From: a virus
Lineage: Duplodnaviria > Heunggongvirae > Uroviricota > Caudoviricetes
Direction: 5' to 3' (one strand)
IMG/VR virus record: IMGVR_UViG_2695420714_000002
Length of the DNA stretch: 12,596 nt
Shown here in pieces: positions 1 through 12,596 of the stretch. The position numbers were made by a program, and so were the translations under genes. The notes beneath the pieces were generated by a model that ran no database searches, had not been told where the DNA came from, and saw only the letters and a list, made by a program, of their open reading frames with translations. Position 1 is the first letter of the stretch; every line of letters starts with the position of its first letter.

Positions 1-44
1 GCCCGTTGACGGACTTCAGGGGAAAAACGAGTATTTTTAGTCAT
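1..44 (-). CDS. IS3-family transposase OrfA, N-terminal fragment (MTKNTRFSPEVRQR...), runs off the window
   Basis: ATG at 44..42 on the minus strand, preceded by GAGG about 9 nt upstream. The translation MTKNTRFSPEVRQR matches the N-terminus of IS629-family OrfA as I recall it. Confidence 0.7.
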   Translation of the reverse strand, partial: MTKNTRFSPEVRQR

Positions 45-98
45 CCTGTTTACCTCTTTCTCAGGAAGTTTAGTCTCCAGGATTCCCGGGGCGGTTCA
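1..98 (-). mobile_element. Left end of an IS3-family insertion sequence (IS629/IS1203/IS3411-like), partial; continues beyond the left edge of the window
   Basis: The minus strand from position 98 reads TGAACCGCCCCGGGAATCCTGGAGACTAAACTTCCTGAGAAAGAGGTAAACAGG followed by ATGACTAAAAATACTCGTTTTTCCCCTGAAGTCCGTCAACGGGC. From memory this matches the terminal inverted repeat and orfA leader of IS629-type elements, including the TG terminus typical of the IS3 family. The IS terminal TGA supplies the stop codon of the adjacent 371-aa ORF. Confidence 0.75.
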
Positions 99-1211
99 GT
101 TATATCGCTTTCCTGCTGCCTCAATGAATTTTTGTTGCCCTTTAGTCGCAGATTCATAAAGCTGTTTATCAGAAATGCCACCCAGACCATCGCTAAATGT
201 TCTGACTAAATTTTCTCGTGCTTGTTGTTGATTCAGCCGATTCTTACCGGTTCCAAAAAAAGGAACTCTTTCGCCTAATGTCTGAGCCTGACTCTGCATA
301 AAGGTTTTATCTTTCAGCATGTCACTGGTCATTAACGGCAGATTTCTTTCCGATGCAAAGTCGACAGCAGCCTTTGCTTCAGGCGACATATCACCACGAA
401 CAGCCCTCGAAACCGCACTCGCTGTATTTTCCAGCCCCTTACCAATACCACCAATGCCAGCAGAAATTACCGTTTGTAACGGATCAATATCTTCTCCACC
501 AGCCTTGCTGGTGGCTCCCTGTAGTGCTAAATCTGTAGCTGCTGATTTTCCTATGGCACCAAGCACCGTTCCAGCCCTGCCCGCTGGTGTAAACGCCAGC
601 GCATTAGCCAGAAACGAAGTCAGGTCTTGCGGTGATAAACCCGGCTTGTTCAGGGCATAATCACCTGATGGCAGAGAAACGATAGTATTCCCCTTCTCAT
701 CCTGCCTTAATGTCGCCCCCATGCCCTGAAGAATCTTTTCCTGAGACGCGTCAGAGCCGAAAAGTTGAGACCATCCAGCCTTCAGGGCATCCATGCTTAG
801 TGAGTTCAATTCTGGGGCAGAGGCGACATTTTGCAGTCTCTCCATCTCTGGAGTCATTCGGCTTTCGCCTGTTATAGCATCGCGCATCGCAGTCCCAAGA
901 CTGGCTCCCTGTTCTGCTGAACGCTCAAGCCCCTCTCTTTGCTGAGTAGCTAACTTTGCATACCCTGACGCAAGAGAATTATCAGATGATGTATGTTGAA
1001 TATTTTGAGTTGCTGATTGGGAGCGGTCTATTTCATTCGTAGATGGTAGTGGATAGGCAGCATAAAAAGCCTGCTTAGCCTGCTCTACACTTTCTCCGGC
1101 TTGCGGGGCCACGACTTCATTGAAGTATTGCTCCTGAGCCTGCACTTTTTGTTCTGGTGCTAACGCCTGATACTGTGGAGAGGCGATAACATCTTTCCAT
1201 GCTTTAGCCAT
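96..1211 (-). CDS. Putative phage ejection (DNA-transfer) protein, P22 gp16-like by synteny, C-terminally truncated by the IS insertion (371 aa)
   Basis: Complete ORF in the track, last gene of a coupled four-gene cassette; its start overlaps the stop of the upstream gene by 1 nt. Ala/Gly/Gln/Ser-rich, low-complexity composition. The stop codon is the first 3 nt of the IS end, so the natural C-terminus is missing (P22 gp16 is about 609 aa, from memory). Assignment rests on size, order and composition only. Confidence 0.45.
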   Translation of the reverse strand: MAKAWKDVIASPQYQALAPEQKVQAQEQYFNEVVAPQAGESVEQAKQAFYAAYPLPSTNEIDRSQSATQNIQHTSSDNSLASGYAKLATQQREGLERSAEQGASLGTAMRDAITGESRMTPEMERLQNVASAPELNSLSMDALKAGWSQLFGSDASQEKILQGMGATLRQDEKGNTIVSLPSGDYALNKPGLSPQDLTSFLANALAFTPAGRAGTVLGAIGKSAATDLALQGATSKAGGEDIDPLQTVISAGIGGIGKGLENTASAVSRAVRGDMSPEAKAAVDFASERNLPLMTSDMLKDKTFMQSQAQTLGERVPFFGTGKNRLNQQQARENLVRTFSDGLGGISDKQLYESATKGQQKFIEAAGKRYN

Positions 1212-2632
1212 TAATCACCCCATAGTGAAGAAAAATTACTGCTGGCTGCTGGCTGTGATACCTGCTCAGATTGCGGCAATGTCTGCGACGAAGAAGAAGT
1301 TCCTCTGTCAACTGCTGAAATAACACGCAAAGCATCATAAGCTCGACCAGAAGCAGCTTTCAGCGAATTGAACTGGTTTTCCATCTTCCGGCGCTTGGTA
1401 TCAATGGTTTTTGTGGAGTCGCCAGGCTGAGGGAAATACATTTGATAATATTTTGACATTTCAGCAGGTACGATAGCTGCCCCTGTTTCCTGACGGAGTA
1501 TTGCCATTATTGCGTCATTAGCATTAACAACGTATTGCTGCTCTGTTGGGCTGAGCGTTAAGTTAGCCAGCGTCCCATTACCCAAAGCATTATTAATGAT
1601 CGCCACTCGCTGTGGGCTAAGCTGGCCTTTCAGTGTATCCATTGAATCAAGAGCATCCCTAACTCTGTATGCAAATCCAGCAGCTTTTTTAGCCCCTTCT
1701 GGCGACTTTTCCATGATCTTTTGGGCTGTTGGCAAAGCTATTGGACGAAACCCATCTCCAGATATTGGCTGGTTTAGTTTTCCCTGCTCTTCACTTCCGT
1801 CTGTGTAGTATTTTGTGACAGTGCCATCATCGTTTTCCCTAACACTCATTAATTTTTTGGCGTTTGTATTAATTCCAGCCGCTGCCGCAAATGCCGCTGC
1901 CCCCTCTGGATCCGCCTTTAACATTTGCGCGTACTGATTGTAATTCTGCATTGCGGCTGTTGGTGCATATGCTGACGTTAACGCATTTGCTCGGCTAATA
2001 TCCTGCCCTCTCGCCTGAAGCGCCTCTCCAGCCTGATTGCTGCGGATTGTCTCTGCCAACTTGCCACGCTCAATATCCCGACCTTCCATTCGATCTTTGA
2101 TATCGAAGTACTTCTCATGACCGAGAGAAAACAGTGCCATACTACCAGCAAGCCGCTGGAATTCCTGTGGATCATTAACATGCATTTCGGCAACAGACTC
2201 AGGAGAAATTCCCAAGCGACGCATTTCATCTTCGTTATCTGCTATGAATTTTCCAAATGCCCCAGTTCCGAGCGAAGATGCGATTTGAGCACTAGTCGCA
2301 AGATGACCAATAGAATTTCTCTGGTCGTCATCAATAAAGCCCATCCCTTTCTGAACGCTTTCAAATTCTTCTGGATACTCAGAAATAAGACTGCGCATTT
2401 TGTTTCTGTCTCCAGACTCAAAAGCCCCGGCATATGCTTTCTGAAACTCTGCTTTACGCTGTTGTTGACGTGCCTGCTGATTAATCTCAGCAACGCCTCT
2501 TAGCCCCTGTAGCGCCATTAAACCTACGTTTGGCTGCTGCTGAAACTGCACAGGCTGAGGAACGGAAGAACGAGGAGCATTATCATTTTGCGGTACCATG
2601 CTAGGCAGCCCGCCAAGTTGCCATGTCGCCAT
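1211..2632 (-). CDS. Putative phage ejection (DNA-transfer) protein, P22 gp20-like (473 aa)
   Basis: 473-aa ORF. Overlaps the upstream gene stop at 2632 and the downstream gene start at 1211 by 1 nt each. Size matches P22 gp20 (about 471 aa, from memory) and it sits between gp7-like and gp16-like genes. Gln/Ala-rich, predicted helical. No similarity search was possible. Confidence 0.5.
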   Translation of the reverse strand: MATWQLGGLPSMVPQNDNAPRSSVPQPVQFQQQPNVGLMALQGLRGVAEINQQARQQQRKAEFQKAYAGAFESGDRNKMRSLISEYPEEFESVQKGMGFIDDDQRNSIGHLATSAQIASSLGTGAFGKFIADNEDEMRRLGISPESVAEMHVNDPQEFQRLAGSMALFSLGHEKYFDIKDRMEGRDIERGKLAETIRSNQAGEALQARGQDISRANALTSAYAPTAAMQNYNQYAQMLKADPEGAAAFAAAAGINTNAKKLMSVRENDDGTVTKYYTDGSEEQGKLNQPISGDGFRPIALPTAQKIMEKSPEGAKKAAGFAYRVRDALDSMDTLKGQLSPQRVAIINNALGNGTLANLTLSPTEQQYVVNANDAIMAILRQETGAAIVPAEMSKYYQMYFPQPGDSTKTIDTKRRKMENQFNSLKAASGRAYDALRVISAVDRGTSSSSQTLPQSEQVSQPAASSNFSSLWGD

Positions 2633-3309
2633 TAGAATCCAAGCCCCCCAACAAGACCAATAAGCCCACCACCAATAGCCCCGGCGACATTACCTATACC
2701 CGGAACAACGGAACCAAGTTGCGCACCCGCTAAAGCGCCTGATGCCGCCCCACCAATACCACGCGCAAGACTGGATGGCTGCTGCGCCTGACCTGCACGA
2801 ATAGCGCCAAGCCCCTGCAAGAGTTGTCCGGTATTATTGGCGTAGTTTTGCCCTGCTGTTGCCTGCCCTGATGCCGCATTCATCCCGACATTTAGCAGGT
2901 TTCCATAATTTTGCATTTGCCCACTAAGCCAATTGTTATAAAGCATGGGCGCAATGGAAGATAACTGGTTACTGGTAGCTGTTGAGCCAAGCCCCCCGGT
3001 AGCTTCTGCTGAGACAAGGTTCTGATAACGGGCCTGATCTGCCTGTGTTTTATATAAACCAGAACCAAAGAAATCATTCGCGGCTTTATTCTGCCCTTCC
3101 AGAGTCATCAGTCCTTGTAGTTGTTGTAAAGCAGGCAATCCGACTTCTGCATACGGCTTGAGATTATTCATCACCGTATTCCACTGCTCGCGCTGCAAAT
3201 CAATTGCCTGCTGCTGGGCCTTCGCCTGAGCTTTAGAGGCACCACCATCACCGCCTTTTTCGTATACGGCACGATTGAGATGTTTATGAGCTATATGGGT
3301 AATTAACAC
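2632..3309 (-). CDS. Putative phage ejection (DNA-transfer) protein, P22 gp7-like (225 aa) with glycine-zipper hydrophobic C-terminus
   Basis: 225-aa ORF; P22 gp7 is about 229 aa (from memory). The C-terminal 40 residues are GIGGAASGALAGAQLGSVVPGIGNVAGAIGGGLIGLVGGLGF, a GxxxG-rich hydrophobic segment. Overlaps the upstream gene by 7 nt. Confidence 0.5.
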   Translation of the reverse strand: MLITHIAHKHLNRAVYEKGGDGGASKAQAKAQQQAIDLQREQWNTVMNNLKPYAEVGLPALQQLQGLMTLEGQNKAANDFFGSGLYKTQADQARYQNLVSAEATGGLGSTATSNQLSSIAPMLYNNWLSGQMQNYGNLLNVGMNAASGQATAGQNYANNTGQLLQGLGAIRAGQAQQPSSLARGIGGAASGALAGAQLGSVVPGIGNVAGAIGGGLIGLVGGLGF

Positions 3310-3764
3310 TCGCTGAATTCCTTATATTGTTGCCGAGTTAACTGATAAAGCGTTACGCCGACGGGTTTACCACATCTGATATAAGCATCATCAAGGTGAC
3401 CAACACGGGTAGCGCCAAGCAAACTGATAATTGCCCGTCCGTATTTCGTTGTGTCAGGAACCATGGTAATGCTGTTAAGGAATGGTGAGTTTTCGAGAAG
3501 CCATTTGCAGAATAATCGATGCCCTTGCAGTGCATATTCACCACGGAATCCGGGGTCGTACACCGCATGGCATTCAACAATGCTATGCCAGAAGTTACGC
3601 ACTTCATGAACGCCAGCCAGCACCAATCCTTCGTAGATACCGAGATATACCGCATCAGGCTTGATGTAGTACGTGTGCCCCGGCTCAACAATATTTTCGG
3701 TATTGCCAGGCTCGTTGAGAAAGGCCTGTAATCGCACAGGGTTATCAATAAATTTTAGTTCCAT
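3303..3764 (-). CDS. Hypothetical 153-aa protein, P22 gene-14-like position upstream of the ejection-protein genes (alternative: small acetyltransferase-like protein)
   Basis: 153-aa ORF, first large gene of the cassette; translation MELKFIDNPVRLQAF...YIRCGKPVGVTLYQLTRQQYKEFSEC. Weak SD (GGATGG) upstream of the ATG at 3764. The family assignment is an inference from synteny. Confidence 0.45.
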   Translation of the reverse strand: MELKFIDNPVRLQAFLNEPGNTENIVEPGHTYYIKPDAVYLGIYEGLVLAGVHEVRNFWHSIVECHAVYDPGFRGEYALQGHRLFCKWLLENSPFLNSITMVPDTTKYGRAIISLLGATRVGHLDDAYIRCGKPVGVTLYQLTRQQYKEFSEC

Positions 3765-3780
3765 GCGATGCCATCCATTT

Positions 3781-3942
3781 TCACATACAGCCTGCCAGCG
3801 CCTTATCTATTAACCCTCGTGCAATTTCATGCAGAGTTGGCGCTACTCCAATTCCTGATTTTTTACGCTGCTCTTCCTGAATTTTCTTTATCGCTTCCAT
3901 TTGCTTCTCACTTATCAATACCGGCTTTACTGAAATAGCCAT
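3781..3942 (-). CDS. Small 53-aa protein with ribbon-helix-helix-like residue pattern (not in the ORF track, below its size cutoff)
   Basis: ATG at 3942..3940 with a strong SD (AAGGGGG) about 5 nt upstream; stop TGA at 3783..3781, 16 nt before the 153-aa gene start. Translation MAISVKPVLISEKQMEAIKKIQEEQRKKSGIGVAPTLHEIARGLIDKALAGCM shows a short beta-strand-like segment followed by two helix-like segments, as in Arc/MetJ/CopG proteins. Confidence 0.45.
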   Translation of the reverse strand: MAISVKPVLISEKQMEAIKKIQEEQRKKSGIGVAPTLHEIARGLIDKALAGCM

Positions 3943-3969
3943 AACGCCCCCTTAGAACTGTATAAAACA

Positions 3970-4010
3970 ACAGTTATTATAGTTTCACAAATCGCAATAT
4001 TCATCATCGT
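3970..4010 (-). promoter_or_regulatory. Candidate sigma70-type promoter for the 53-aa ORF and ejection-protein cassette
   Basis: Minus-strand TATAAT (plus-strand attata at about 3976-3981) lies about 30 nt upstream of the SD of the 53-aa ORF. The -35 region is weak. A 6-bp inverted repeat AACTGT-N8-ACAGTT (about 3956-3975) overlaps the predicted transcription start. Confidence 0.3.
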
Positions 4011-4037
4011 AATTGCAAAATATGAAACAGATAGCAC

Positions 4038-4070
4038 AAAAAAATGCCACCGCTCAGTAGCTGGTGGCAT
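4038..4070 (-). terminator. Rho-independent terminator closing the primase operon
   Basis: 8-bp stem ATGCCACC/GGTGGCAT (about 4044-4051 and 4063-4070) with an 11-nt loop. On the minus strand it is followed immediately by a run of 7 T (plus-strand A7 at 4038-4044). Confidence 0.5.
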
Positions 4071-4262
4071 CGTTCTGTGTGTCAGGTTTTGACAGGTTTT
4101 TTATGGACTCTAAAAACTATATTTATGGTGTCGCATTACTCTTCACGGCAGGCGCTTTTCAGTTCTGCCCTTGCTTCTGGCTCCATTGGTAATTTGATTC
4201 GCGATCAGCTATGCGGATGGTTTGCTGAACAGGTATAACAACTTCTCAGGGGCTGTTTTCTG

Positions 4263-4340
4263 AACTACGAAAATTTCGTAGTGCTCACTTTCAAAAACGT
4301 CACGCCCTTGTACACAGGATTTTACGAAAGTCTCGTAAAA
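4263..4340. promoter_or_regulatory. Two related palindromic operator-like sites sharing the half-site TACGAAA
   Basis: Site 1 at about 4263-4283: aaCTACGAAA-a-TTTCGTAGtg. Site 2 at about 4320-4340: TTTTACGAAA-g-TcTCGTAAAA. Their centres are about 57 bp apart, in the non-coding region between the primase stop and the terminator. Confidence 0.4.
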
Positions 4341-4389
4341 CACTCTCTGATGCCAGCCAGGTGTTGTGCGCATCAATTCAGTCACATTG

Positions 4390-4501
4390 TGTTGGTTCAA
4401 AATACCGTGCTGTTGGTTCAGTGTTGGTTCAATAAAAAGAATAAAATTCTTATAAAACAATACTCTTTACAAATTGAACCAACTGAACCAACTGAACCAA
4501 C
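4390..4501. repeat. Iteron cluster: three direct and three tandem inverted copies of GTTGGTTCA flanking an AT-rich spacer; putative replication origin or cis-replication region
   Basis: TGTTGGTTCA at 4390-4399, 4411-4420 and 4422-4431. TGAACCAAC, the reverse complement, in perfect tandem at 4475-4483, 4484-4492 and 4493-4501. The roughly 43-bp spacer between them (4432-4474) is strongly AT-rich. The cluster lies directly downstream of the primase gene. Confidence 0.6.
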
Positions 4502-4526
4502 GCCTTTTCTACGCACATGAAGAAGC

Positions 4527-7286
4527 TCATTCTTCAGATGAGTTGTAATCTCCTGGCTGGTAATTGAGTACATAAACGTTTATTTGTCGTCCCTGAATAC
4601 GTGGTGATTTTCTTTGGTATCCACGACCGCTGTTTGGTGGGGTTAGCATCCCGGCTTTTTTCAACACTTCAGCAAACTGTTTTGCGTTGAAACCACATGC
4701 GATCTCCTTTTCAAATGTGGCCGGGAATGTGTAGAAAATCATTGGGCTTTCGTCATGTTCTCCACGCTGACGGTATCCGGCTAAATCTTTGATGGGCAAA
4801 TCTGCCGGGCTGTATGGAAATGGTGCAAAACGGCTAAGCCCATAGGCATTAAGAAATGCCTCCGTTTGTTCAATAATCTGCTGATGTTCTTTGTTACCTG
4901 TGCCGAACTCGCGCAACCATGCGTTATAGCTGTGCTGTATCGCATCACGGCATGTCTGAGCATCCCAGCCTGTTACAACCTCGCCTAACAGCAATGCGGC
5001 CTCCAGAATGGCAAATCGCGCGGCTACACGGTGAACCTGCTCACCATAATCGGATGGGATCAGACTTCTCCATCTGCTTTCGCAGTCACGAACAGTTTTA
5101 ATTGCCTGTTGCTGGTGGTCTGCCAGCCATTTAATCCACTCACGCCCGGCTGCGCCGTGGTGATGCTGGTAAGCGTCTTTCAGTGCGTCTGCGTGCTGTT
5201 TTCCGTTCTGGTAATCGTGAAAGCGTACTGCTTTACTCAACGGAATATTCAGCAGTCGCACCAGTTGCCCGGCTTTGGTTTTTCGCCCGGAAGTAGCGAT
5301 AAATGTTTCTAAATCCATTTCTCCGGTGCTGATTGCCACTGTACGCCAGCGTTTTAGATCCCGGTTTCCACCATCTTTAGCGCCTTGCAGTTTCCCTACA
5401 CCGTTAAATAACGCATAGGCAGACTGTGAAACACTGACAGGATCAGCGCCCTGACCAACTTCATCAAGCGGCATTAGTCCGTCATTGTGGGCGGCGGCTT
5501 CATTTGCCAGCCCCAGCGCGGTTCCGTACCACGTCAGCCGCAGTAAATCAGGGTTGCCGTATAAGCTGCTCGCCACGTTTGCCGTGGTGGTCTTACCTGC
5601 GCTCGACTGCTCATAGAAATGAATGCCGAACCCGTCAGCGCCCACCAGCCCAATCAATGGCGCTGCCAGTGCTGCGCCGATCCCGGTCATCATTGAATAG
5701 TTACCAAAGGCCAGACGCGCCACGTTATCACGCCAGCTTTTCGCGCTCCCTGAGACGGTATATCCGGCTGCGGCTGAGCTTCTCCCGCTGAACAGCACAG
5801 GATTTTCAGGTGTTCCGATGATTTCCCCATCAGGCATGATGTACGCTCCGCATTGCCAGCCAGTGGCATGAGCAACACGCCACAATTCACGAGAGCCACT
5901 GCGTTGTAGCCAGTCTGCCAGTATTGCTCTGAGGCTGCTTTTGGTCGTGACATTTACCCCACCAGCTTTAAGTGTGCGCCATCCTTCACGTTCACCAATA
6001 TCAGCCAGTGGAATGGCAGCGGTTGTCGGCGTTTCAGAACCAAACGACAGCCAGCGAAGAATGAGATACTGGTCTTTATCGTCTCTGCCAGTACCGATAA
6101 CGCTTAACGGAGAACATAACCAGCTTTCGTTATTGATGATTTCTCCACTCTGGCTGTCAGCTCTCGGAGATACCCAATAAATGCCATCCTCGCGGCTTTC
6201 TATTCTTGGTTTCAGTGGGTCGGTATCCATAACCTTAAAATCGCTTCCCTCAATGGTTTGTGGCTCCTGTTTCACGCCATTACCCTGTGGTTGGTACATT
6301 GACTTATTGAACGCTTCTGTGGCGCATTTAATGCCGTGTTTTTGGTGGTAATCATTCCAGTCTGCTTTGTGATCTGTCGGGGGTAATGCCACCCATCCAG
6401 AAACAGATAAAGCTGCTTTTTCTGCTGCTATTCTCCCCGTGTTTTGTCTTCCTTCGCTGTGGTCGTTATCCGCAGCAATGATGATTTGTGCTGAAGGAAA
6501 TTTATCCCGCAGTACCTGGGCGACATATAACAGGTTCCCGGCATCAATCGCCGCCACTGTCAGCGCCTCTGGACGCATTAAATGGGCAGATAATGCCGTT
6601 GCCAGCCCTTCTGCGATTAAGATGCTCTGTGTTGTTTCTGGTGCGTTTATGGCGTGATATGCCCCCCGCTTTGCTGAACCTATCAGGAGTCTTTTTTCAC
6701 CATGTGAGGTAATAGTCTGTGCTGCTGTTACTGCGCCGGATTTATCCACCAGCGCCAGCAACAGAGATCCATCGGGCAACACGGGGAATGTAAAATCACC
6801 TACCCCTTTCGCAACCAGATAATCAGATTTGCCGTTTACAGCCTTTCTGCGCATGTCATCAAACTGACGGGAAAACGTATCCCGTCTTTGTTGTTCGTCC
6901 TTCTCTGCCCTTTTCAGGCGCTCCTGTTCGCGTCGCTGGCGCTCGGTTTCCAGTTGTTCCCGTTTCTGGCTGGTGGCTTCTGGTGTTTCCGTTGTCCGGT
7001 AATCAATACCCAGAACATCAGCGGCAAGAAGCGCCGCCTCTGTTGTGTCGCAGTTATTTACGCGTTTAATTAAATCCAGCCCATCACCAGCGCCGCACTG
7101 ATTACAGATGAAGCTACCGCGCCCGTTGTCATCGAACCGGAATCGATCTTTGCCCCCACATGCAGGGCAGGGAGCATGACGGCGCGGAGAGTCAGGGACA
7201 TTTATGTTCAGGCAGCCCAGCACATGAGGCCAGTTGTTTTCAGACGCACTGATAACCTGACGGATAAGATCAATGTTTCGCATCAC
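4527..7286 (-). CDS. Phage/plasmid-type DNA primase with zinc-binding N-terminus, TOPRIM domain and C-terminal P-loop NTPase (P4 alpha-like architecture), 919 aa
   Basis: Zinc-finger-like CPACGGKDRFRFDD...CNQCG near the N-terminus; TOPRIM-like acidic motif IIIAADNDHSEG; Walker A-like FYEQSSAGKTT. The first codon is GTG at 7286 with an ATG at 7283; a G-rich SD lies upstream. The start overlaps the upstream 123-aa gene by 17 nt. Confidence 0.85.
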   Translation of the reverse strand: MMRNIDLIRQVISASENNWPHVLGCLNINVPDSPRRHAPCPACGGKDRFRFDDNGRGSFICNQCGAGDGLDLIKRVNNCDTTEAALLAADVLGIDYRTTETPEATSQKREQLETERQRREQERLKRAEKDEQQRRDTFSRQFDDMRRKAVNGKSDYLVAKGVGDFTFPVLPDGSLLLALVDKSGAVTAAQTITSHGEKRLLIGSAKRGAYHAINAPETTQSILIAEGLATALSAHLMRPEALTVAAIDAGNLLYVAQVLRDKFPSAQIIIAADNDHSEGRQNTGRIAAEKAALSVSGWVALPPTDHKADWNDYHQKHGIKCATEAFNKSMYQPQGNGVKQEPQTIEGSDFKVMDTDPLKPRIESREDGIYWVSPRADSQSGEIINNESWLCSPLSVIGTGRDDKDQYLILRWLSFGSETPTTAAIPLADIGEREGWRTLKAGGVNVTTKSSLRAILADWLQRSGSRELWRVAHATGWQCGAYIMPDGEIIGTPENPVLFSGRSSAAAGYTVSGSAKSWRDNVARLAFGNYSMMTGIGAALAAPLIGLVGADGFGIHFYEQSSAGKTTTANVASSLYGNPDLLRLTWYGTALGLANEAAAHNDGLMPLDEVGQGADPVSVSQSAYALFNGVGKLQGAKDGGNRDLKRWRTVAISTGEMDLETFIATSGRKTKAGQLVRLLNIPLSKAVRFHDYQNGKQHADALKDAYQHHHGAAGREWIKWLADHQQQAIKTVRDCESRWRSLIPSDYGEQVHRVAARFAILEAALLLGEVVTGWDAQTCRDAIQHSYNAWLREFGTGNKEHQQIIEQTEAFLNAYGLSRFAPFPYSPADLPIKDLAGYRQRGEHDESPMIFYTFPATFEKEIACGFNAKQFAEVLKKAGMLTPPNSGRGYQRKSPRIQGRQINVYVLNYQPGDYNSSEE

Positions 7287-7641
7287 CGTACCCCACGTGG
7301 TCTATAGCGTTTGCGATATGGCTAACCAGCATCTGCCACTTGGTTATTCCGTAATCAGTCAGCATGCCATCATTGTTTAGCCACATATCAAATTCAGCGG
7401 TTGTCGCAAGTTTCCACTTATCGCCGTGGACAGTCCTCATTGCTGGGTACATGAATGCGCAAATCAGATCACAAACATCTGACGGCTTCAGAGATGTAGT
7501 AATGGTGCGTCCCTCTGGCGTCTGAATTGCCATTTTCTCTTCACTAGTAGAATGAAGGTTATGAATCCACACAGCGCCAGCAATCTTTGCCACCTGCTCT
7601 CCGATTGCGGAGCTAAGCGCCATTTCTGCATTTTCACGCAT
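7270..7641 (-). CDS. Hypothetical protein (123 aa), translationally coupled to the primase
   Basis: ATG at 7641 with SD GGGAGG 5-6 nt upstream; 8-nt overlap with the upstream gene; the 3' end overlaps the primase start. Confidence 0.6.
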   Translation of the reverse strand: MRENAEMALSSAIGEQVAKIAGAVWIHNLHSTSEEKMAIQTPEGRTITTSLKPSDVCDLICAFMYPAMRTVHGDKWKLATTAEFDMWLNNDGMLTDYGITKWQMLVSHIANAIDHVGYGDAKH

Positions 7642-7975
7642 GAGAACCTCCCGCTACAGTTGCGCCCATGTCATTAACCATGCTTTGCCATATCTCACGC
7701 CCGACGTCAGTCAATCCGTCCTTAGTGACGCAACGATCAAGAAGCTCTATCACCACGGTTTCCCACTGCGGGTAGAACACTTTCATGGCTGCCAGTGTGT
7801 AGCTATCGATCAGGCTGCGAACGCCTTTTACTCCATTGACGATTTCCACACGGACGGCCTCGCCGTCCGCATCAACCATGAAATAGTCCCCGCCGCTGGT
7901 GGAGGTAATGTGGTTATACAGTGCCGACGCATACTTATTTGCCAGCGCATTCAGTCGGAAATTTTTAGTAATCAT
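7634..7975 (-). CDS. Hypothetical protein (113 aa)
   Basis: ATG at 7975 with GGAG/GAGGA upstream; 10-nt gap after the upstream gene stop; same-strand operon context. Confidence 0.55.
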   Translation of the reverse strand: MITKNFRLNALANKYASALYNHITSTSGGDYFMVDADGEAVRVEIVNGVKGVRSLIDSYTLAAMKVFYPQWETVVIELLDRCVTKDGLTDVGREIWQSMVNDMGATVAGGSHA

Positions 7976-7985
7976 GGCTCCATCC

Positions 7986-8588
7986 TCAGTGCGTCACTGG
8001 TTCCGCTGGCATGCCGTTTTCATTCAGTTCAGCTATAAAGCTGTTGTGAAGTTCAGCAAGCGTTTCACGACCAAATGGAGTCAGTGCTCCTTGTTCCACA
8101 TCCATCATGGCTCTGTAGAAAATGATGGCGCGTTCTGTGCCAGACTCGATGCCAAAACGTTCTATCATCGCGCCCTCAATGTTGTTTGCCATAGCGAGGC
8201 GCTCTGCTACTGGATACAGCGGCATGGCGACGATGCCGTTGGAATAAACAGCCACTTCGGAAGGATTGCCAGTATCATCAATGATGCTGACAGTGCCGTT
8301 TTCCTCTCTCATTTCCAGCATGAATACTGTTGCGATCAGCCATCTCCACATAATGACGTTATGCTGTGATGTGTAATCGAAATATCCTTGGTTGCCGCCA
8401 TCGGCAATAGCGAGATGTATTGACATACCTTCATCTGGTTTATCGTCATAATCCCCGGCATCCAGACGATTTACGGCATCAATATATGAAACGGCCTCAA
8501 CGCGTTCTGTCATGCCATCGTTGCTGCGGTGTATGATGTTTACGCCGTCAGGCGTTGCTTCTGCATGGAAGGTTAAGAAATTATTCAT
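7986..8588 (-). CDS. Hypothetical protein (about 200 aa; start re-called at the internal ATG, the track ORF extends to 8693)
   Basis: The track ORF 7986..8693 overlaps the upstream gene by about 110 nt. The internal Met (MNNFLTFHAEATPDG...) at about 8588 gives the ATGAATAA-type 8-nt start/stop overlap seen at other junctions in this operon, with GAGG upstream. Confidence 0.55.
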   Translation of the reverse strand: MNNFLTFHAEATPDGVNIIHRSNDGMTERVEAVSYIDAVNRLDAGDYDDKPDEGMSIHLAIADGGNQGYFDYTSQHNVIMWRWLIATVFMLEMREENGTVSIIDDTGNPSEVAVYSNGIVAMPLYPVAERLAMANNIEGAMIERFGIESGTERAIIFYRAMMDVEQGALTPFGRETLAELHNSFIAELNENGMPAEPVTH

Positions 8589-8802
8589 GTTTCGCCTCGC
8601 CTGAATGATTCTGTAACTCATATTTGCCCAACAATTCGTCTGCTTCCTGAATAGCTTCTGGTACGCCATTGAGCAGTGACATAACCGCGCCAATCATTAA
8701 CTTGTCTCTGTTGCTGGGGCTGGCCCCTTCAAGCCAGAACCCTAAAACAGTCTGAACCTGTTCGATGCGACATTGCGCTTCAATGAGCTGGATGTTGGTC
8801 AT
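8581..8802 (-). CDS. Hypothetical protein (73 aa)
   Basis: ATG at 8802 with SD GGAGAG about 6 nt upstream; ATGA-type 4-nt overlap with the upstream gene. Confidence 0.55.
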   Translation of the reverse strand: MTNIQLIEAQCRIEQVQTVLGFWLEGASPSNRDKLMIGAVMSLLNGVPEAIQEADELLGKYELQNHSGEAKHE

Positions 8803-9062
8803 TTCGCACTCTCCGCATCGATTAAACTGATATCTATCAGAGAGGTAACTTTTTGTAGCCAGCTAGTGATTACTGTCGCCTGTTCCCCTCCCACCGATGG
8901 AAGAATCTCATTCATCACATGAACCAGACCTGTGCGCGCTCTGGTAAGCCGTTCAGTCGTGCGATCTGCAAGAGTGAATGTGTCTGGATATGGCTCTTCA
9001 CGGCTCAGCAATGATTCAATTTCCAGCTCACACGGATGACGATAAATTAAGTTGATATTCAT
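8799..9062 (-). CDS. Hypothetical protein (87 aa)
   Basis: ATG at 9062 with a G-rich SD (GGGGG) about 7 nt upstream; ATGA overlap with the upstream gene stop. Confidence 0.55.
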   Translation of the reverse strand: MNINLIYRHPCELEIESLLSREEPYPDTFTLADRTTERLTRARTGLVHVMNEILPSVGGEQATVITSWLQKVTSLIDISLIDAESAK

Positions 9063-9253
9063 TTTTCACCCCCAAGAATTACCAGCTCTGCACGAGCATC
9101 GTTAACCAAAGATGAGCACGCTTTAATCGCATCCACGACATCAGCAGCGTCCATTTCTTCAGCCGAAAGACTGACAGCAACCAGGACAGCCGCTGCTTGC
9201 TCGATTAATTGAAGTGCGGACGTAAGTCGAGGGGCATTAATTGAGTTATTCAT
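9059..9253 (-). CDS. Hypothetical protein (about 64 aa; start re-called at the internal ATG, the track ORF extends to 9310)
   Basis: Internal Met ([10 protein letters not shown]...) at 9253 with AGGGG about 7 nt upstream and an 8-nt ATGAATAA-type overlap with the stop of the upstream 72-aa gene. The longer track start would overlap that gene by about 65 nt. Confidence 0.5.
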   Translation of the reverse strand: MNNSINAPRLTSALQLIEQAAAVLVAVSLSAEEMDAADVVDAIKACSSLVNDARAELVILGGEK

Positions 9254-9464
9254 TGGTTGCCCCTGTTTTTCCAGGCATTTCGCCACCTTCCAGCAGGAAA
9301 TGAACGTCACGAACGGCGAGATCCAATATCGCGAGTAACGCCTTCAGTTTTTCGTCTCGTGAGGGAGAGTTGCTCACCAGAATGTCATTAATCACTTCTG
9401 TCAGTGTGATGATCTGGCTTGTGCGTTCGAGGGGATCCATATGCACATCGTAGGTTTTAATCAT
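9246..9464 (-). CDS. Hypothetical protein (72 aa; [13 protein letters not shown]...), annotated here as an independent gene rather than the C-terminus of the 355-aa track ORF
   Basis: ATG at 9464 preceded by SD GGAGG with a 6-nt spacer. The start overlaps the stop of the 64-aa gene as ATGATTAA. The translated sequence is helical and protein-like, unlike the 355-aa frame immediately upstream of it. Confidence 0.6.
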   Translation of the reverse strand: MIKTYDVHMDPLERTSQIITLTEVINDILVSNSPSRDEKLKALLAILDLAVRDVHFLLEGGEMPGKTGATNE

Positions 9465-10313
9465 GTGCCACCTCCATGCGGATACGACCAGCAAAAAAGC
9501 AGACGTGATCGCGCACCAGAGAACGGCGAGCATCGCGTTCAGACTCGGCAGCAATATGATGAATTTTGGCGGTAATTGTCGGGCAATCGCGGCGAACTGC
9601 GGCGATAATCCAGATAAATTGCGGTTTTTGGGTAGGGGTAGTAGCCAGCATGTGGCAGCCTCCTTGTACTGGGAATTCTTCCCACCACCGGAGCTGCGAA
9701 ACTCGCTGGTGGTGGACTGAACAGAGTTCGCAGTACCGGCGTACAAGGAAACCGGCCAGCCTTTCGGCTGCCCTGTCCAGCCCACCATAATTTTGCAAGC
9801 GACGCGGATTATAACCACATCACTGAAAAAAGTGTGAGTCTGGCTAACGGCACAAAAAAAGACGCTCGGCGCGTCATGTGTCGCCTCGTACATTTCCGGG
9901 CTGCGAAACCCGGCACCCGTTTTATGAGGTGCCTTATAACCATAAACCGTGTTGCCGCATAACGACAAGCTCTTTTTTATGGACTCCGAAAACTCACTAT
10001 TGGAAGCACCAGATGCACAATACATCGCGCTCATTTCGTTAACGTCGCGCGTGTGGACGAAGGTTTTTGTGGAGCCACTACGCGAGCAGAGAAAGCCATC
10101 TACGACCAGAAATTCTCTGGCGCAGCCGCTGACCCTCTCAACGCTAACACCATCGACCGTAATTTCTGACATAGTTAAGGCATCCGCTCCTACCACCAGC
10201 AAATGATAAACCTTGCTTGCATCTGCTGTATTAATGCCTGATTTTGCTGTCATATTGCTGGATTTTTGCGACATACCAGCCAGTGAAAATATCTTCTTCT
10301 GGGCGGTTAGCAT
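9246..10313 (-). CDS. ORF with a strong start at 10313 (355 aa in the track); probably composite: an N-terminal hypothetical protein of about 150 aa that has lost its stop, or reads through, fused in frame across the leader to the 72-aa gene
   Basis: ATG at 10313 with SD GGAGG about 7 nt upstream and an ATGCTAA-type overlap with the upstream gene stop, so a real gene starts here. The frame stays open through a hairpin-T7 element, a TATAAT, a structured leader and the 64-aa gene in another frame. Both alternative frames hit stop codons shortly after the T7 tract. Confidence 0.3.
9457..9651 (-). CDS. Hypothetical protein (64 aa; [22 protein letters not shown]...), first gene of the small-gene/primase operon
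   Basis: Internal ATG of the 113-aa track ORF 9457..9798, preceded by a perfect SD (AAGGAGG) with about a 7-nt spacer. Its stop TAA overlaps the next gene's ATG. It lies in a different frame from the 355-aa track ORF, whose translation here is compositionally odd (Trp/Pro-rich). By my base count the ATG is at 9650..9648, one nt off the frame implied by the track. Confidence 0.5.
   Translation of the reverse strand: MLATTPTQKPQFIWIIAAVRRDCPTITAKIHHIAAESERDARRSLVRDHVCFFAGRIRMEVAHD
9653..9747 (-). promoter_or_regulatory. Structured 5' leader: nested hairpins with pseudoknot potential that occlude the SD of the 64-aa gene
   Basis: Outer 8-bp stem CCTTGTAC (9661-9668) with GTACAAGG (9740-9747); the mRNA arm overlaps the AAGGAGG SD. 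Inner 10-bp GC-rich stem 9681-9690 with 9705-9714, with a 14-nt loop. Loop sequence CTGCGAA (9694-9700) is complementary to TTCGCAG (9726-9732). Confidence 0.4.
9853..9874 (-). terminator. Terminator-like GC hairpin followed by a T7 run on the minus strand (candidate attenuator or intrinsic terminator)
   Basis: Plus-strand A7 at 9853-9859 followed by GACGC-tcggc-GCGTC at 9860-9874; on the minus-strand RNA this is a hairpin followed by UUUUUUU. The stem is only 5 bp, so this is weak. A TATAAT on the minus strand (about 9812..9807) follows it. Confidence 0.3.
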
Positions 10314-10489
10314 TTGTTAACCTCCGCGAACTCCTTCATGAAACGTGCCAGCGGTTGTACGCATGGCGATTGATACCCGTCGCGATAAAACGTCACTCGG
10401 TTGTGAGACACGCTTTCGACAGTAACGAGTGCTCCGTGGGCATCTTTGTAGCGTTTTTGAGGTTGTGGTGTTCCTGTCGGCTTAAACAT
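10307..10489 (-). CDS. Hypothetical small protein (60 aa; start re-called at the internal ATG, the track ORF extends to 10576)
   Basis: Internal Met (MFKPTGTPQPQKRYKDAHG...) at 10489 with SD GGAGG 6 nt upstream and an 8-nt overlap with the antirepressor stop (ATGTTTAA). The longer track start lies inside the antirepressor gene. Confidence 0.55.
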   Translation of the reverse strand: MFKPTGTPQPQKRYKDAHGALVTVESVSHNRVTFYRDGYQSPCVQPLARFMKEFAEVNKC

Positions 10490-11315
10490 GGACCGCCTCC
10501 AGACGCTTAGCGAGCCAGCGTTGCGACAGGCGGGTGAGTTCTCCTTTGCGCTGCTCATATTCCATGCCCATATCAATTAACGTGATATTGGTGCTTTCGA
10601 GATATGAGAGGTGCTCAAGCTGTTCTGCGTTCATATGGTCGCGAGGTTCGCCAGAATAGCCATTTATCCGCGCCCACTGCTTAGCAGTTAGCCCACCAAG
10701 AACGATACGAGAAATCATATTGCTCTCGTTTGTGTAGTGGTGTTGCTGCGTCGTTTTACCCATCTCGGCACGGGCCATATTCAGCGCATCGCACATTGGC
10801 TTAAAGTTGTTTGCGGCACTGATACGGGCTTTTAGCTGGCGACGATAGCGGGCGGCGATTTCAGGCACGCTACGCTGTAATTCTTCCTCGCACTGGATGA
10901 AATAACGGCGGATAGCGCGACCCTGATCATTGCGTTCGATCATTGCCAGTTCTTTCGCCATTCCGACACTTAACAGATAGTCTTTGCCGGGCCTGCCAGA
11001 CTGCTTAATCTTGCTGTAAGCCGCGCCATTCGGGCTTTTCCCCAAATTTGGGGAAATTGTTTTATGGACTGAGTAATCGCGCCCAATGGTGAAGTCATAC
11101 TCAGAGATGCGATCAGTGATCCATGTAGAGAAGTCTTTTCCCACGCCCAACGCTTTGTGTAACGCTTTTGCGCTAACAATATTGGTTTCACGCCCACCGA
11201 TATGACCAGGAATAACCGGGACAATTGCGGCAAATTCATTACCGTTAATTGTGCCCAGAAAGGCGTTCGGATGAGGGGCGGCCTCAGAAATTAATCTGCT
11301 TTTTTCGATGTTCAT
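10482..11315 (-). CDS. Phage antirepressor-like protein, AntA/AntB family (277 aa)
   Basis: Segments such as VSAKALHKALGVGKDFSTWITDRISEYDFTIGRDY and DYLLSVGMAKELAMIERNDQGRAIRRYFIQCEEEL match conserved AntA-type antirepressor motifs as I recall them. SD GGAGAC 8 nt upstream of the ATG at 11315. Confidence 0.6.
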   Translation of the reverse strand: MNIEKSRLISEAAPHPNAFLGTINGNEFAAIVPVIPGHIGGRETNIVSAKALHKALGVGKDFSTWITDRISEYDFTIGRDYSVHKTISPNLGKSPNGAAYSKIKQSGRPGKDYLLSVGMAKELAMIERNDQGRAIRRYFIQCEEELQRSVPEIAARYRRQLKARISAANNFKPMCDALNMARAEMGKTTQQHHYTNESNMISRIVLGGLTAKQWARINGYSGEPRDHMNAEQLEHLSYLESTNITLIDMGMEYEQRKGELTRLSQRWLAKRLEAVHV

Positions 11316-11327
11316 TTTCAGTCTCCG

Positions 11328-11759
11328 TTAGGCGGCGTTAAACGCGTCCGGGTAGAGTTTCAGAATGTCGGCAATTTCCTGCTGAGAAAGTCCGTTGTGA
11401 TCATTTATGTTCGCAAGATGGTTAACATGAGTGATCACTTTCAGAACATCACCACGGCAGGAGAAACGGTAGCGAAGGTGTGCTCCGATACCATCAGGAT
11501 TCTTTTCGTCGATACGCTCCAGAGTGATCCCAAGCTGGCGTTCTAACTCTGTTGCATAGTTACGACCAGAAGACAGACGGCAGTAGCGAAGAATGTCGTT
11601 TTCTGTCCATCCCTCTATACCAGTACGCAGCATATAGACTCGGGCGCGATGCTTTTTTGGTGTGCGCTTTGGTGCTTGAAGGGATTTTGTCAGGGGCGTA
11701 ACATCAGATACGCGAATATCTGAATTAGCCGCCTGTAATGGGCGGTTTTTCTTTTCCAT
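11328..11759 (-). CDS. Hypothetical protein (143 aa), translationally coupled to the AlpA-like gene
   Basis: ATG at 11759 overlaps the AlpA-like gene stop by 1 nt. Basic N-terminus (PKRTPKKHRAR). No recognisable catalytic motif. Confidence 0.55.
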   Translation of the reverse strand: MEKKNRPLQAANSDIRVSDVTPLTKSLQAPKRTPKKHRARVYMLRTGIEGWTENDILRYCRLSSGRNYATELERQLGITLERIDEKNPDGIGAHLRYRFSCRGDVLKVITHVNHLANINDHNGLSQQEIADILKLYPDAFNAA

Positions 11760-11962
11760 CAGGCCACCTTCCCGCGGCGTTCTGCCAGCCAGTTGTGAAT
11801 CTCAACCGCATCAAACGCAGTTATTTTTTCTCCCAGCTTTACCGGACGTGGTAGTGAACCGTTTCTTACTTTACGGTCGATGGTGGATACACTAACGCCC
11901 AGCAATTCAGCCAGGCGGAAGCGTCTGATATAGCCTTTTGTAGGAATAGTGTCGGTGTTCAT
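11759..11962 (-). CDS. alpA: AlpA-family (prophage CP4-57-type, excisionase-like) helix-turn-helix transcriptional regulator (67 aa)
   Basis: 67 aa. RFRLAELLGVSVSTIDRKVRNGSLPRPVKLGEKITAFDAVEIHNWLAER fits the AlpA pattern of an HTH followed by a conserved Pro/Lys segment and a C-terminal Trp-containing helix. First gene of the operon. Confidence 0.7.
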   Translation of the reverse strand: MNTDTIPTKGYIRRFRLAELLGVSVSTIDRKVRNGSLPRPVKLGEKITAFDAVEIHNWLAERRGKVA

Positions 11963-12481: not shown

Positions 12482-12533
12482 TTTGAATGTAAGCGTGCAG
12501 CAAGAACCGTATTGACGGGGATGTGTTATTCAG

Positions 12534-12596
12534 TCGGCAGTGCTACGCGCCAGGGGAGCAGTTCGCCGACCCGGTTTATCGGCCAGTCGGCTATGA
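12534..12596 (-). CDS. Possible 3' end of a minus-strand gene running in from beyond the right edge (for example an integrase); identity unknown
   Basis: Two minus-strand frames are open from the window edge to stops at about 12531-12536 (for example ...IADWPINRVGELLPWRVALPTE*). GC-rich, unlike the adjacent AT-rich gene. No start is visible in the window. Confidence 0.2.

What the first reader, a model, noticed from the sequence alone, without database searches (positions are those of the whole stretch)
1..1211. IS629-like insertion truncates the last ejection-protein gene
The IS terminal sequence TGAACCGCCCCGGG... begins exactly at the stop of the 371-aa ORF (96-98), and the IS orfA start MTKNTRFSPEVRQR follows on the same strand. 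The gp16-like gene is therefore cut short (371 aa against about 609 aa expected from P22, from memory). This marks the virion cassette as probably defective. Because IS629-type elements are characteristic of Shigella and E. coli O157 lineages, it also hints at the host background.
Basis: partly seen in the sequence, partly recalled or inferred. Interest (0 to 1): 0.4.

Follow-up and report, generated by a model that had tools for sequence, protein, structure and literature searches.

The report
IS629 cuts a satellite's ejection-protein gene
A common jumping gene (IS629) has landed in the middle of a phage-type DNA-injection gene and cut off its back half, but the gene belongs to a known kind of phage-parasitising island (EcCIMP1-like PICI) rather than to a P22-like prophage, so this is an ordinary insertion knockout.

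Summary
Window 1-98 (minus strand) is 100% identical to the left end of IS629: the terminal inverted repeat, the leader and the first 14 orfA codons (MTKNTRFSPEVRQR). The first three IS bases, TGA (98-96), are the stop codon of ORF 96-1211(-).

That ORF is truncated. It is 100% identical to residues 1-371 of an intact 701-aa orthologue, not about 609 aa. The insertion lies exactly between codons 371 and 372.

A sister E. coli assembly from the same project shows the other junction: IS629 right end, then AAC, then codon 372 onward. This fits a simple insertion with a 3-bp target duplication and a retained 3' half.

There is no virion cassette. The gp14/gp7/gp20/gp16-like genes sit directly after a Zn-ribbon/TOPRIM/DUF927 primase. 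The island is 99% identical over 9.3 kb to EcCIMP1, a published phage-inducible chromosomal island mobilised by the P22-like phage Kapi1.

The window is a whole draft contig and ends in an IS at both sides (an IS66-family end at 12489-12596).

The host hint is weak. The depositor labels the organism E. coli, and IS629-like ends occur in 65% of complete E. coli genomes.

Verdict: real, ordinary, low interest.

The parts
1..98 (-). Left end of IS629 (IS3 family): the 25-nt terminal inverted repeat at 98-74, the leader, and the first 14 codons of orfA at 44-3. The rest of the element lies beyond the contig end.
   Evidence: 98/98 identical to the annotated IS629 in LC567824.1. The reference copy has 25-nt inverted repeats. 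The orfA translation matches.
96..98 (-). Stop codon TGA supplied by the first three bases of the IS. It follows codon 371 directly, so no IS-encoded residues are added.
99..101 (-). AAC (codon 371), the target triplet duplicated by the insertion. This is the left copy of the 3-bp target-site duplication.
   Evidence: The left junction in the window is ...TATAAC|TGAACC. The right junction in sister assembly CYAC01000008.1 is GGCGGTTCA|AAC|CGCATAATT. The uninterrupted D8 sequence is ...TATAAC CGCATAATT.
96..1211 (-). Truncated gp16-type ejection ('DNA transfer'/'injection') protein gene: codons 1-371 of 701.
   Evidence: 100% identical to residues 1-371 of WP_001536419.1 from E. coli D8, which is 701 aa. 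phrog_770 'DNA transfer protein' covers positions 3-319 of 668 for the truncated protein and 4-667 of 668 for the intact one. The intact protein aligns end to end with Sf6 gp13 at 32% identity.
1211..2632 (-). gp20-type ejection protein gene (473 aa).
   Evidence: Pfam Inj_translocase, E=1.6e-58. 47% identity to the N-terminus of Sf6 gp12.
2632..3309 (-). gp7-type ejection protein gene (225 aa).
   Evidence: Pfam P22_gp7, E=1.9e-72. 54% identity to Sf6 gp11 and 57% to Kapi1_056.
3303..3764 (-). gp14-type gene (DUF2824, 153 aa), the first gene of the ejection module.
   Evidence: Pfam DUF2824, E=6e-61. 83% identity to Kapi1_055, which occupies the P22 gene-14 position. 23% identity to Sf6 gp10, annotated as 'similar to P22 gene 14'.
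4527..7286 (-). Primase/replicase of the island (Zn-ribbon, TOPRIM and DUF927 domains; 919 aa). It lies directly upstream of the ejection module, where a P22-like phage would have its tail needle gene.
   Evidence: Pfam hits. The gene order is the same in D8, A30 and EcCIMP1.
12489..12596 (.). Terminal 108 bp of an IS66-family element. It forms the other end of the contig and interrupts a hypothetical ORF that lies between alpA and the integrase gene in relatives.
   Evidence: 100% identical to the IS66-family end in strain ARS-C301. The uninterrupted A30 sequence diverges after window 12488.

Best explanation
A copy of IS629 (IS3 family, 1310 bp) transposed into the last gene of the four-gene P22-type ejection-protein module (gp14-, gp7-, gp20- and gp16-like) of an EcCIMP1-like phage-inducible chromosomal island in an E. 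coli strain. It inserted between codons 371 (AAC) and 372 (CGC) of the 701-codon gp16-like gene and duplicated AAC. Because the element begins with TGA, translation stops at once.

The product keeps the N-terminal 53% of the protein. It loses the C-terminal 330 residues, which include the protein's only strongly hydrophobic stretch (about residues 614-655). I infer that this is a loss-of-function allele of the island's own inner-membrane ejection protein. No polar effect is expected, because this is the last gene of the operon and the next gene is on the other strand.

The same island copy also carries an IS66-family insertion near its integrase end, so this copy is accumulating IS damage. The window stops inside both IS elements only because short-read assemblies break at repeats.

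Shown: the identity of the IS, the exact insertion point, the truncation, the island type, and the right junction with target duplication in a sister assembly. Inferred: that the IS is complete, that the truncated protein is non-functional, and any effect on transfer of the island.
For: IS identity and boundary.

Truncation at 371 of 701 with 100% identity.

Right junction, IS629 right end + AAC + CGCATAATTGACGCTATGGGG, followed by the 325-aa remainder ORF, the 129-aa ORF, alpA_1 and perC, in CYAC01000008.1.

Other IS629 copies also make 3-4-bp duplications: CCAG is annotated in LC567824.1, and CAC can be read in JL05.

Island identity:
- The gene order int / alpA / antA / DUF4222 / ash / primase / DUF2824 / gp7 / gp20 / gp16 / alpA_1 / perC sits between yicC and dinD in D8 and A30.
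- EcCIMP1 has the same order.
- The window is 98.98% identical to EcCIMP1 over 9308 nt.
- EcCIMP1 was shown experimentally to excise and to be transduced by the Lederbergvirus Kapi1 (PMC11773190; Kapi1 taxonomy).

Lost part:
- The only 19-residue window with Kyte-Doolittle hydropathy above 1.6 lies at residues 614-655.
- C-terminal predicted transmembrane helices are reported in all gp16-like homologues tabulated in PMC8954989.
- The C-terminal regions of P22 gp16 and gp20 carry the SieA-escape mutations (PMC10461980).

The intact form is the norm. 298 of about 334 complete genomes carrying this allele have the exact in-frame sequence at the one known frameshift site, and the 90% cluster has 2417 members, of which 13 of the 15 listed are 701 aa.
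Against: The interior of the IS and the right junction are not in the window. The right junction comes from a sister assembly of the same WGS project (CYAC versus CYAJ), with different protein accession ranges, so it is not proven to be the same isolate.

No functional data exist for any PICI-encoded ejection protein. The EcCIMP1 authors only suggest a packaging role.

For P22 gp16, residues 476-609 are dispensable for membrane association in vitro (Perez et al., as cited in PMC10461980), so a C-terminal loss is not automatically a null. Here, however, 47% of the protein is gone.

The helper phage brings its own gp16, so transfer of the island may be unaffected.

Pfam PF26808 (Phage_P22_gp16) gave no hit at E<=0.01 in my scan. 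Assignment to the gp16 family rests on PHROG, tblastn and synteny.
Confidence: 0.88

Rival explanations
1. One reading: the window is the virion (ejection) cassette of a P22-like prophage, which the IS insertion has made defective.
For: The four genes have P22-type families and the P22 order gp14-gp7-gp20-gp16. Patches of 84-96% DNA identity to Sf6- and HK620-like phages exist at the gp20/gp16 boundary.
Against: A primase, not a tail needle gene, lies directly upstream. No portal, coat, terminase, gp4, gp10, needle, tailspike or lysis genes occur anywhere in the about 19-kb element in complete genomes. In 18 of 22 related loci from other species the cassette does follow portal/gp4/gp10/needle genes, which shows what a real prophage looks like; this window instead matches the 2 loci where a primase precedes the cassette. 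The 99% identity to the experimentally defined PICI EcCIMP1 also argues against a prophage.
Confidence: 0.03
2. The IS629 junction marks an IS-mediated deletion or rearrangement rather than a simple insertion. In that case the 3' half of the gene and the perC end of the island are lost or relocated in this isolate.
For: The window ends inside the IS, so the other side is unseen. The exact 325-aa remainder protein carries protein accessions from other assemblies than the 371-aa protein does. The island has a second IS hit.
Against: A right junction at the very same nucleotide, with the expected AAC duplication and an intact downstream island, exists in assemblies of the same project. An independent insertion at the same base is improbable.
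Confidence: 0.06
3. The gene tolerates being split. The N-terminal 371 residues, and possibly a separately translated C-terminal 325-aa piece starting at Met377, remain functional, so the insertion is close to neutral.
For: A frameshift allele (T7 to T6, at window 247-253) yields 325 + 325-aa ORFs split at nearly the same place in other strains. PHROGs holds separate families for the two halves, phrog_29864 on residues 65-411 and phrog_29117 on residues 377-701. E-proteins are highly mosaic and interchangeable among P22-like phages (PMC10461980).
Against: The split allele is rare: 4 exact T6 against 298 exact T7 among complete genomes. No obvious ribosome-binding site precedes Met377. After the insertion, 1.3 kb of IS separates the halves, and no promoter for the 3' part has been demonstrated. 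Nonsense mutations that remove only 33-66 C-terminal residues of P22 gp20 are lethal to virion function.
Confidence: 0.08
4. Assembly artefact: a chimeric contig end that joins IS reads to the gene by error.
For: The junction lies 98 bp from a contig end in a short-read draft.
Against: The same junction occurs in two NCBI contigs and in a Logan contig of ERR134524. A contig of SRR20002435 breaks at the same base. The reciprocal junction with a target duplication is also seen.
Confidence: 0.01

Closest known systems
IS629 (IS3 family; isoforms IS1203 and IS3411 recalled from memory), as annotated in Stx2a phage Stx2_499, LC567824.1
   Same: 98 of 98 bases are identical from the first base of the element. 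The 25-nt terminal repeat starts TGAACCGCCCCGGG in both. The OrfA start is the same. Both make a short target duplication (3 bp here, 4 bp annotated there). The right end seen in the sister contig is 149 of 150 identical by eye.
   Different: Only the insertion site differs. The interior (orfB, frameshift site) is not visible in the window.
EcCIMP1, the phage-inducible chromosomal island of E. coli MP1 (Pick, Stadel and Raivio, ISME J 2025, PMC11773190)
   Same: The gene order is the same. Identity is 98.98% over window 2472-11769, covering alpA, antA, DUF4222, ash, the small ORFs, the primase, and the gp14- and gp7-like genes. Both have the ejection-type genes directly after the primase.
   Different: The last two genes are different mosaic alleles. 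The gp20-like protein is 48% identical, over the N-terminus only. EcCIMP1's last gene encodes a 906-aa protein with a lytic transglycosylase domain and has no blastp match to the 701-aa type here. Relatives of this window sit between yicC and dinD, whereas EcCIMP1 sits in tRNA-Thr between proA and yagU. This copy carries IS629 and IS66-family insertions.
P22 gp16 / Sf6 gp13 / HK620 gp16, the inner-membrane ejection (pilot) protein of P22-like podoviruses
   Same: It holds the last position in a gp14-gp7-gp20-gp16 operon. The intact orthologue aligns end to end with Sf6 gp13 (32% identity, residues 1-700 against 1-662) and with ST64T gp16. It makes a full-length phrog_770 match. It has a C-terminal hydrophobic segment.
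   Different: It is encoded by a satellite island, not a phage. It is 701 aa, against 609 for P22. It has no Pfam hit above threshold in my scan. The copy in the window lacks everything beyond the equivalent of about residue 340 of Sf6 gp13.
IS629 insertional inactivation in E. coli O157:H7 (for example the O-rough strains mentioned in the abstract of PMC3271280)
   Same: The same element produces a simple gene knockout by insertion.
   Different: The target gene and, as far as can be told, the host lineage differ.

Membership tests
IS629 (IS3 family) | Terminal inverted repeat beginning TGAACCGCCCCGGG at the element boundary | tested here: met
   Window 98-74(-) equals the left repeat of the annotated IS629. 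Homology to uninterrupted islands stops exactly at base 99.
IS629 (IS3 family) | orfA reading frame starting MTKNTRFSPEVRQR about 54 bp inside the left end | tested here: met
   Only 14 codons lie in the window.
IS629 (IS3 family) | orfB with a DDE transposase domain, the programmed -1 frameshift, and a 1310-bp length | not testable with these tools
   These lie beyond the contig end. Draft assemblies break inside the repeat.
IS629 (IS3 family) | 3-4-bp target-site duplication flanking the element | tested here: met
   AAC is present at the left junction in the window and at the right junction in sister assembly CYAC01000008.1. Caveat: the right junction is not proven to come from the same isolate.
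P22 gp16-type ejection protein | End-to-end sequence similarity to gp16 homologues of P22-like phages | tested here: met
   The intact orthologue matches phrog_770 at positions 4-667 of 668, E=3e-161. tblastn covers residues 1-700 against Sf6 and ST64T at 32% identity. The window's product covers only the first half.
P22 gp16-type ejection protein | Pfam PF26808 (Phage_P22_gp16) above threshold | tested here: inconclusive
   My hmmscan gave no hit at E<=0.01. Precomputed hits are marked 'weak' or 'faint'.
P22 gp16-type ejection protein | Synteny: the last gene of a gp14-gp7-gp20-gp16 block | tested here: met
P22 gp16-type ejection protein | Packaged in the virion and required for DNA delivery | not testable with these tools
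   This needs particle proteomics and genetics.
EcCIMP1-like PICI (phage-inducible chromosomal island) | An alpA regulator, a primase/replicase with an adjacent iteron-type origin, and no capsid, tail or lysis genes | tested here: met
   An AlpA-like HTH ORF lies at 11759-11962, matching phrog_66. The primase is confirmed by Pfam. GGTTCAGTT x3, an AT-rich spacer and TGAACCAAC x3 lie just 3' of the primase. No structural genes occur in the window or in complete relatives.
EcCIMP1-like PICI (phage-inducible chromosomal island) | An integrase and flanking att repeats | tested here: inconclusive
   The integrase is outside the window, beyond the IS66-family end. It is present in D8, A30 and MP1. 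I did not examine att sites.
EcCIMP1-like PICI (phage-inducible chromosomal island) | Helper-dependent excision and transfer | not testable with these tools
   This was shown for EcCIMP1 with Kapi1 (PMC11773190), not for this variant.
P22-like prophage (Lederbergvirus) | Portal, scaffold, coat, gp4, gp10 and needle genes upstream of gene 14, and a tailspike downstream of gene 16 | tested here: not met
   A primase lies upstream. alpA_1 and perC lie downstream in relatives. Contrast Sf6 and Kapi1 and the 18 phage-type loci.

The most novel reading that the evidence does not exclude
EcCIMP1-type satellites keep a complete P22-type ejection set (gp14-, gp7-, gp20- and gp16-like) as their only virion-related genes. 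The gp20/gp16 alleles are swapped mosaically between islands. Under this reading the satellite loads its own ejection proteins into helper-built capsids to control how its DNA enters the next cell, for example to bypass SieA-type exclusion, which targets the gp16/gp20 C-termini. Alternatively, it expresses them from the chromosome to interfere with incoming helper DNA. The IS629 allele would then be a natural knockout of that function. The published description only calls these genes 'DNA transfer/DUF2824, possibly packaging'.
Probability: 0.3. Interest if true: 0.55.

Novelty: already known. Interest (0 to 1): 0.17.

Why it matters
As stated, the finding matters little. It is one more IS629 knockout, private to a few closely related E. 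coli isolates; the exact 371-aa product was seen on only four contigs.

Its practical value is as a correction. Windows like this should be annotated as an EcCIMP1-like PICI, not as a defective P22-like prophage. The 'contig ends in an IS' pattern is an assembly boundary.

The side value is that it draws attention to a satellite family that carries a full ejection-protein module. That module is conserved from Escherichia to Leclercia, with the primase 68% and the gp14/gp7-like proteins 82-84% identical. The role of these proteins has not been tested, and this allele could serve as a natural mutant.

Tried and rejected
- An exact-pattern scan of genome contigs for the left junction found nothing. 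That collection holds one genome per species, so this says little.
- NCBIfam gave no hit for any of the four cassette proteins.
- Pfam gave none for the gp16-like protein.
- The PDB sequence search found no relative.
It worked only after listing of cluster members returned an id for it.
- I first read strain JL05 (H1) as an independent IS insertion in the same gene. That was wrong. Its IS629-like copy (96% identical, duplication CAC) sits in the neighbouring 129-aa ORF, and its gp16-like ORF is a full 701 aa despite PGAP's 'partial' flag.
- I considered recurrent decay or phase variation at the T7 run, because a 325-aa fragment cluster has 273 members. I rejected this: only 4 complete genomes carry T6 against 298 with T7.
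- pN/pS between island copies was below 1 but rests on too few differences to be informative.
- A 2026 bioRxiv paper on the P22 translocation channel was listed but could not be read.

Full report
**1. What is in the sequence**

All genes of the window run on the minus strand. Read on that strand, the ORF at 1211-96 ends ...GGA AAG CGA TAT AAC TGA. The TGA is the start of TGAACCGCCCCGGGAATCCTGGAGACTAAACTTCCTGAGAAAGAGGTAAACAGG ATG ACT AAA AAT ACT CGT..., which runs to the end of the window. Window 44-3 translates to MTKNTRFSPEVRQR.

**2. Is it IS629?**

Window 1-98(-) is 98/98 identical to many Stx-phage records, with E=2e-44. In Stx2a phage Stx2_499 (LC567824.1) the match starts at the first base of a feature annotated 'insertion sequence: IS3 family IS629'. 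That feature is 1310 bp, with a 4-bp target duplication and OrfA and OrfB annotated. The reference copy has 25-nt terminal inverted repeats, and its OrfA begins with the same 14 residues.

Uninterrupted E. coli relatives match the window from exactly base 99, at 100% identity over 99-1300. So the IS begins at base 98, and its first three bases are the stop codon of the ORF.

**3. Is the gene truncated?**

Yes. The orthologue in E. coli D8 (WP_001536419.1) is 701 aa, and the 371-aa product is 100% identical to its residues 1-371. The D8 DNA reads ...CGA TAT AAC CGC ATA ATT GAC..., so the insertion lies exactly between codons 371 and 372.

Relatives range from 609 aa (P22) and 665 aa (Sf6) to 722 aa (HK620), per PMC8954989. 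The correct yardstick for this allele is 701 aa.

The intact protein matches phrog_770 'DNA transfer protein' over positions 4-667 of 668. The truncated one covers only positions 3-319 of 668. The intact protein aligns end to end with Sf6 gp13 at 32% identity. The truncated one reaches only residue 340 of 665.

The only strongly hydrophobic stretch of the protein, about residues 614-655, lies in the lost part. C-terminal predicted transmembrane helices are reported in all gp16-like homologues tabulated in PMC8954989.

**4. The other side of the insertion**

The window is essentially a whole draft contig. The exact 371-aa protein occurs on a 12,596-bp and a 12,592-bp NCBI contig (accessions CTT39904.1 and CTT49472.1; GCA_001285225.1) and on Logan contigs of ERR134524 and SRR20002435. 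The rest of the IS therefore cannot be seen here.

I predicted a right junction of the form IS629 right end + (T)AAC + CGCATAATT. The 325-aa remainder ORF (Met377 to the end) exists as an annotated protein in assemblies of the same project (CTS10366.1, CTS26173.1). One of its contigs, CYAC01000008.1 (185 kb), begins inside the IS629 3' end. It reads ...CCAGGAAACCCGGGGCGGTTCA AAC CGCATAATTGACGCTATGGGGG..., followed by the rest of the gene, the 129-aa ORF, alpA_1 and perC.

That is the reciprocal junction at the same nucleotide, with a 3-bp duplication (AAC). I take this as strong evidence for a simple insertion with the 3' half retained. The caveat is that it was seen in a sister assembly, not demonstrably in the same isolate.

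**5. What the surrounding element is**

The element is not a P22-like prophage. Upstream of the gp14-like gene lies a 919-aa Zn-ribbon/TOPRIM/DUF927 primase. Further upstream come small ORFs, an Ash-family gene, DUF4222, AntA and an AlpA-like HTH.

In complete genomes such as D8 and A30, the element is about 19 kb and sits between yicC and dinD. It has an integrase at one end and alpA_1/perC at the other, and no capsid, portal, terminase, tail or lysis genes.

The same architecture is EcCIMP1 of E. coli MP1. That island is published as a PICI that excises only when the helper Kapi1 is present and is transduced by it (PMC11773190). Kapi1 is a Lederbergvirus with the usual needle-gp14-gp7-gp20-gp16 order.

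The window is 98.98% identical to EcCIMP1 over 9308 nt, at window 2472-11769. About 195 of 5426 complete E. coli genomes hold at least 80% of the window at roughly 97-99% identity.

The cassette proteins are recognisable ejection-module proteins:
- DUF2824, 83% identical to Kapi1_055, which sits at the gene-14 position.
- P22_gp7, E=1.9e-72.
- Inj_translocase (gp20), E=1.6e-58.
- The gp16-like protein described above.

The gp20/gp16 pair is a different mosaic allele from EcCIMP1's. This agrees with the known hypervariability of these two genes in P22-like phages (PMC10461980).

Among species-representative genomes, 18 loci with a related gp7 show the normal phage context. Two show the primase context, in Escherichia sp. 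and in Leclercia adecarboxylata, where the primase is 68% identical. The satellite-borne cassette is therefore an established lineage, not a one-off remnant.

**6. Consequence (inferred)**

The island's own gp16-like protein loses 47% of its length, including its hydrophobic C-terminal segment. I consider it a null allele.

For P22, residues 476-609 of gp16 are dispensable for membrane binding in vitro. However, SieA-escape changes map to the C-terminal regions of gp16 and gp20, and short C-terminal truncations of gp20 are lethal to virion function.

Whether the loss matters to the island is unknown. No function has been shown for PICI-encoded ejection proteins, and the helper supplies its own. 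There should be no polarity, since the gene is the last of its operon.

The same copy also has an IS66-family element inserted at 12489, in the ORF between alpA and the integrase gene. This copy is being degraded by IS activity.

**7. The host hint**

The depositor's organism for the exact protein is Escherichia coli. IS629-like ends occur in 3553 of 5426 complete E. coli genomes, mostly at 95-99% identity. The exact isoform (>=99%) is found in only 198 records, including EHEC O145. The IS gives at most a weak lineage hint. Shigella could not be examined, because the annotated collection holds E. coli only.

**8. Verdict**

Both the element and the island family are already described, and the event is ordinary.

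The only reading with some novelty is that these satellites maintain and exchange their own ejection-protein sets for a purpose. This allele would be a natural knockout for testing that.

Noticed in passing
window 12489-12596: The right end of the window is the terminal 108 bp of an IS66-family element, 100% identical to the copy in strain ARS-C301. It is inserted in a hypothetical ORF that lies between alpA and the integrase gene in relatives. The contig is therefore bounded by IS ends on both sides.
   Followed up: yes
window 9705-9792(-) and 9855-9932(-): Rfam matches above gathering score to C4 antisense RNA (81 bits) and to isrK Hfq-binding RNA (69 bits). Both lie inside the ORF annotated 'ash family protein' (9246-10313). 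This suggests a P1/P4-type RNA immunity region and hints that the long 'ash' ORF may be over-called.
   Followed up: no
window about 4400-4500 (intergenic 3943-4526): Just 3' of the primase gene lie GGTTCAGTT x3, an AT-rich spacer and TGAACCAAC x3, an iteron-like arrangement that probably marks the island's replication origin. A 65-nt piece (4445-4508) has an inverted second copy next to perC in relatives (L007 10844-10908).
   Followed up: partly
window 247-253 (A7 on the + strand, T7 in the gene): Other strains carry a 1-nt deletion in this homopolymer that splits the gp16-like gene into 325 + 325-aa ORFs. It is rare among complete genomes (4 exact T6 against 298 exact T7). The 90% cluster of the 325-aa C-terminal piece has 273 members, but most of those listed are partial or contig-edge fragments, and some split calls may be homopolymer sequencing errors.
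   Followed up: yes
window 96-2632, compared with L008 12598-16634: The gp20- and gp16-like genes are swapped as mosaic modules between otherwise 99%-identical islands. EcCIMP1's last gene encodes a 906-aa protein with a lytic transglycosylase domain and has no blastp match to the 701-aa type here.
   Followed up: partly
L002 (E. coli JL05) 4205-6310 and L030 (ARS-C301) 8783-10598: PGAP flags the gp16-like gene as 'incomplete, missing C-terminus'. In JL05 the ORF is a full 701 aa, so the pseudogene flag looks like an annotation artefact. I did not check the ARS-C301 ORF.
   Followed up: partly
L034 (Leclercia adecarboxylata) 3795-11241: A diverged island (primase 68% identical) keeps the gp14/gp7/gp20-like genes downstream of the primase, with about 3 kb of unexamined DNA between them.
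   Followed up: no
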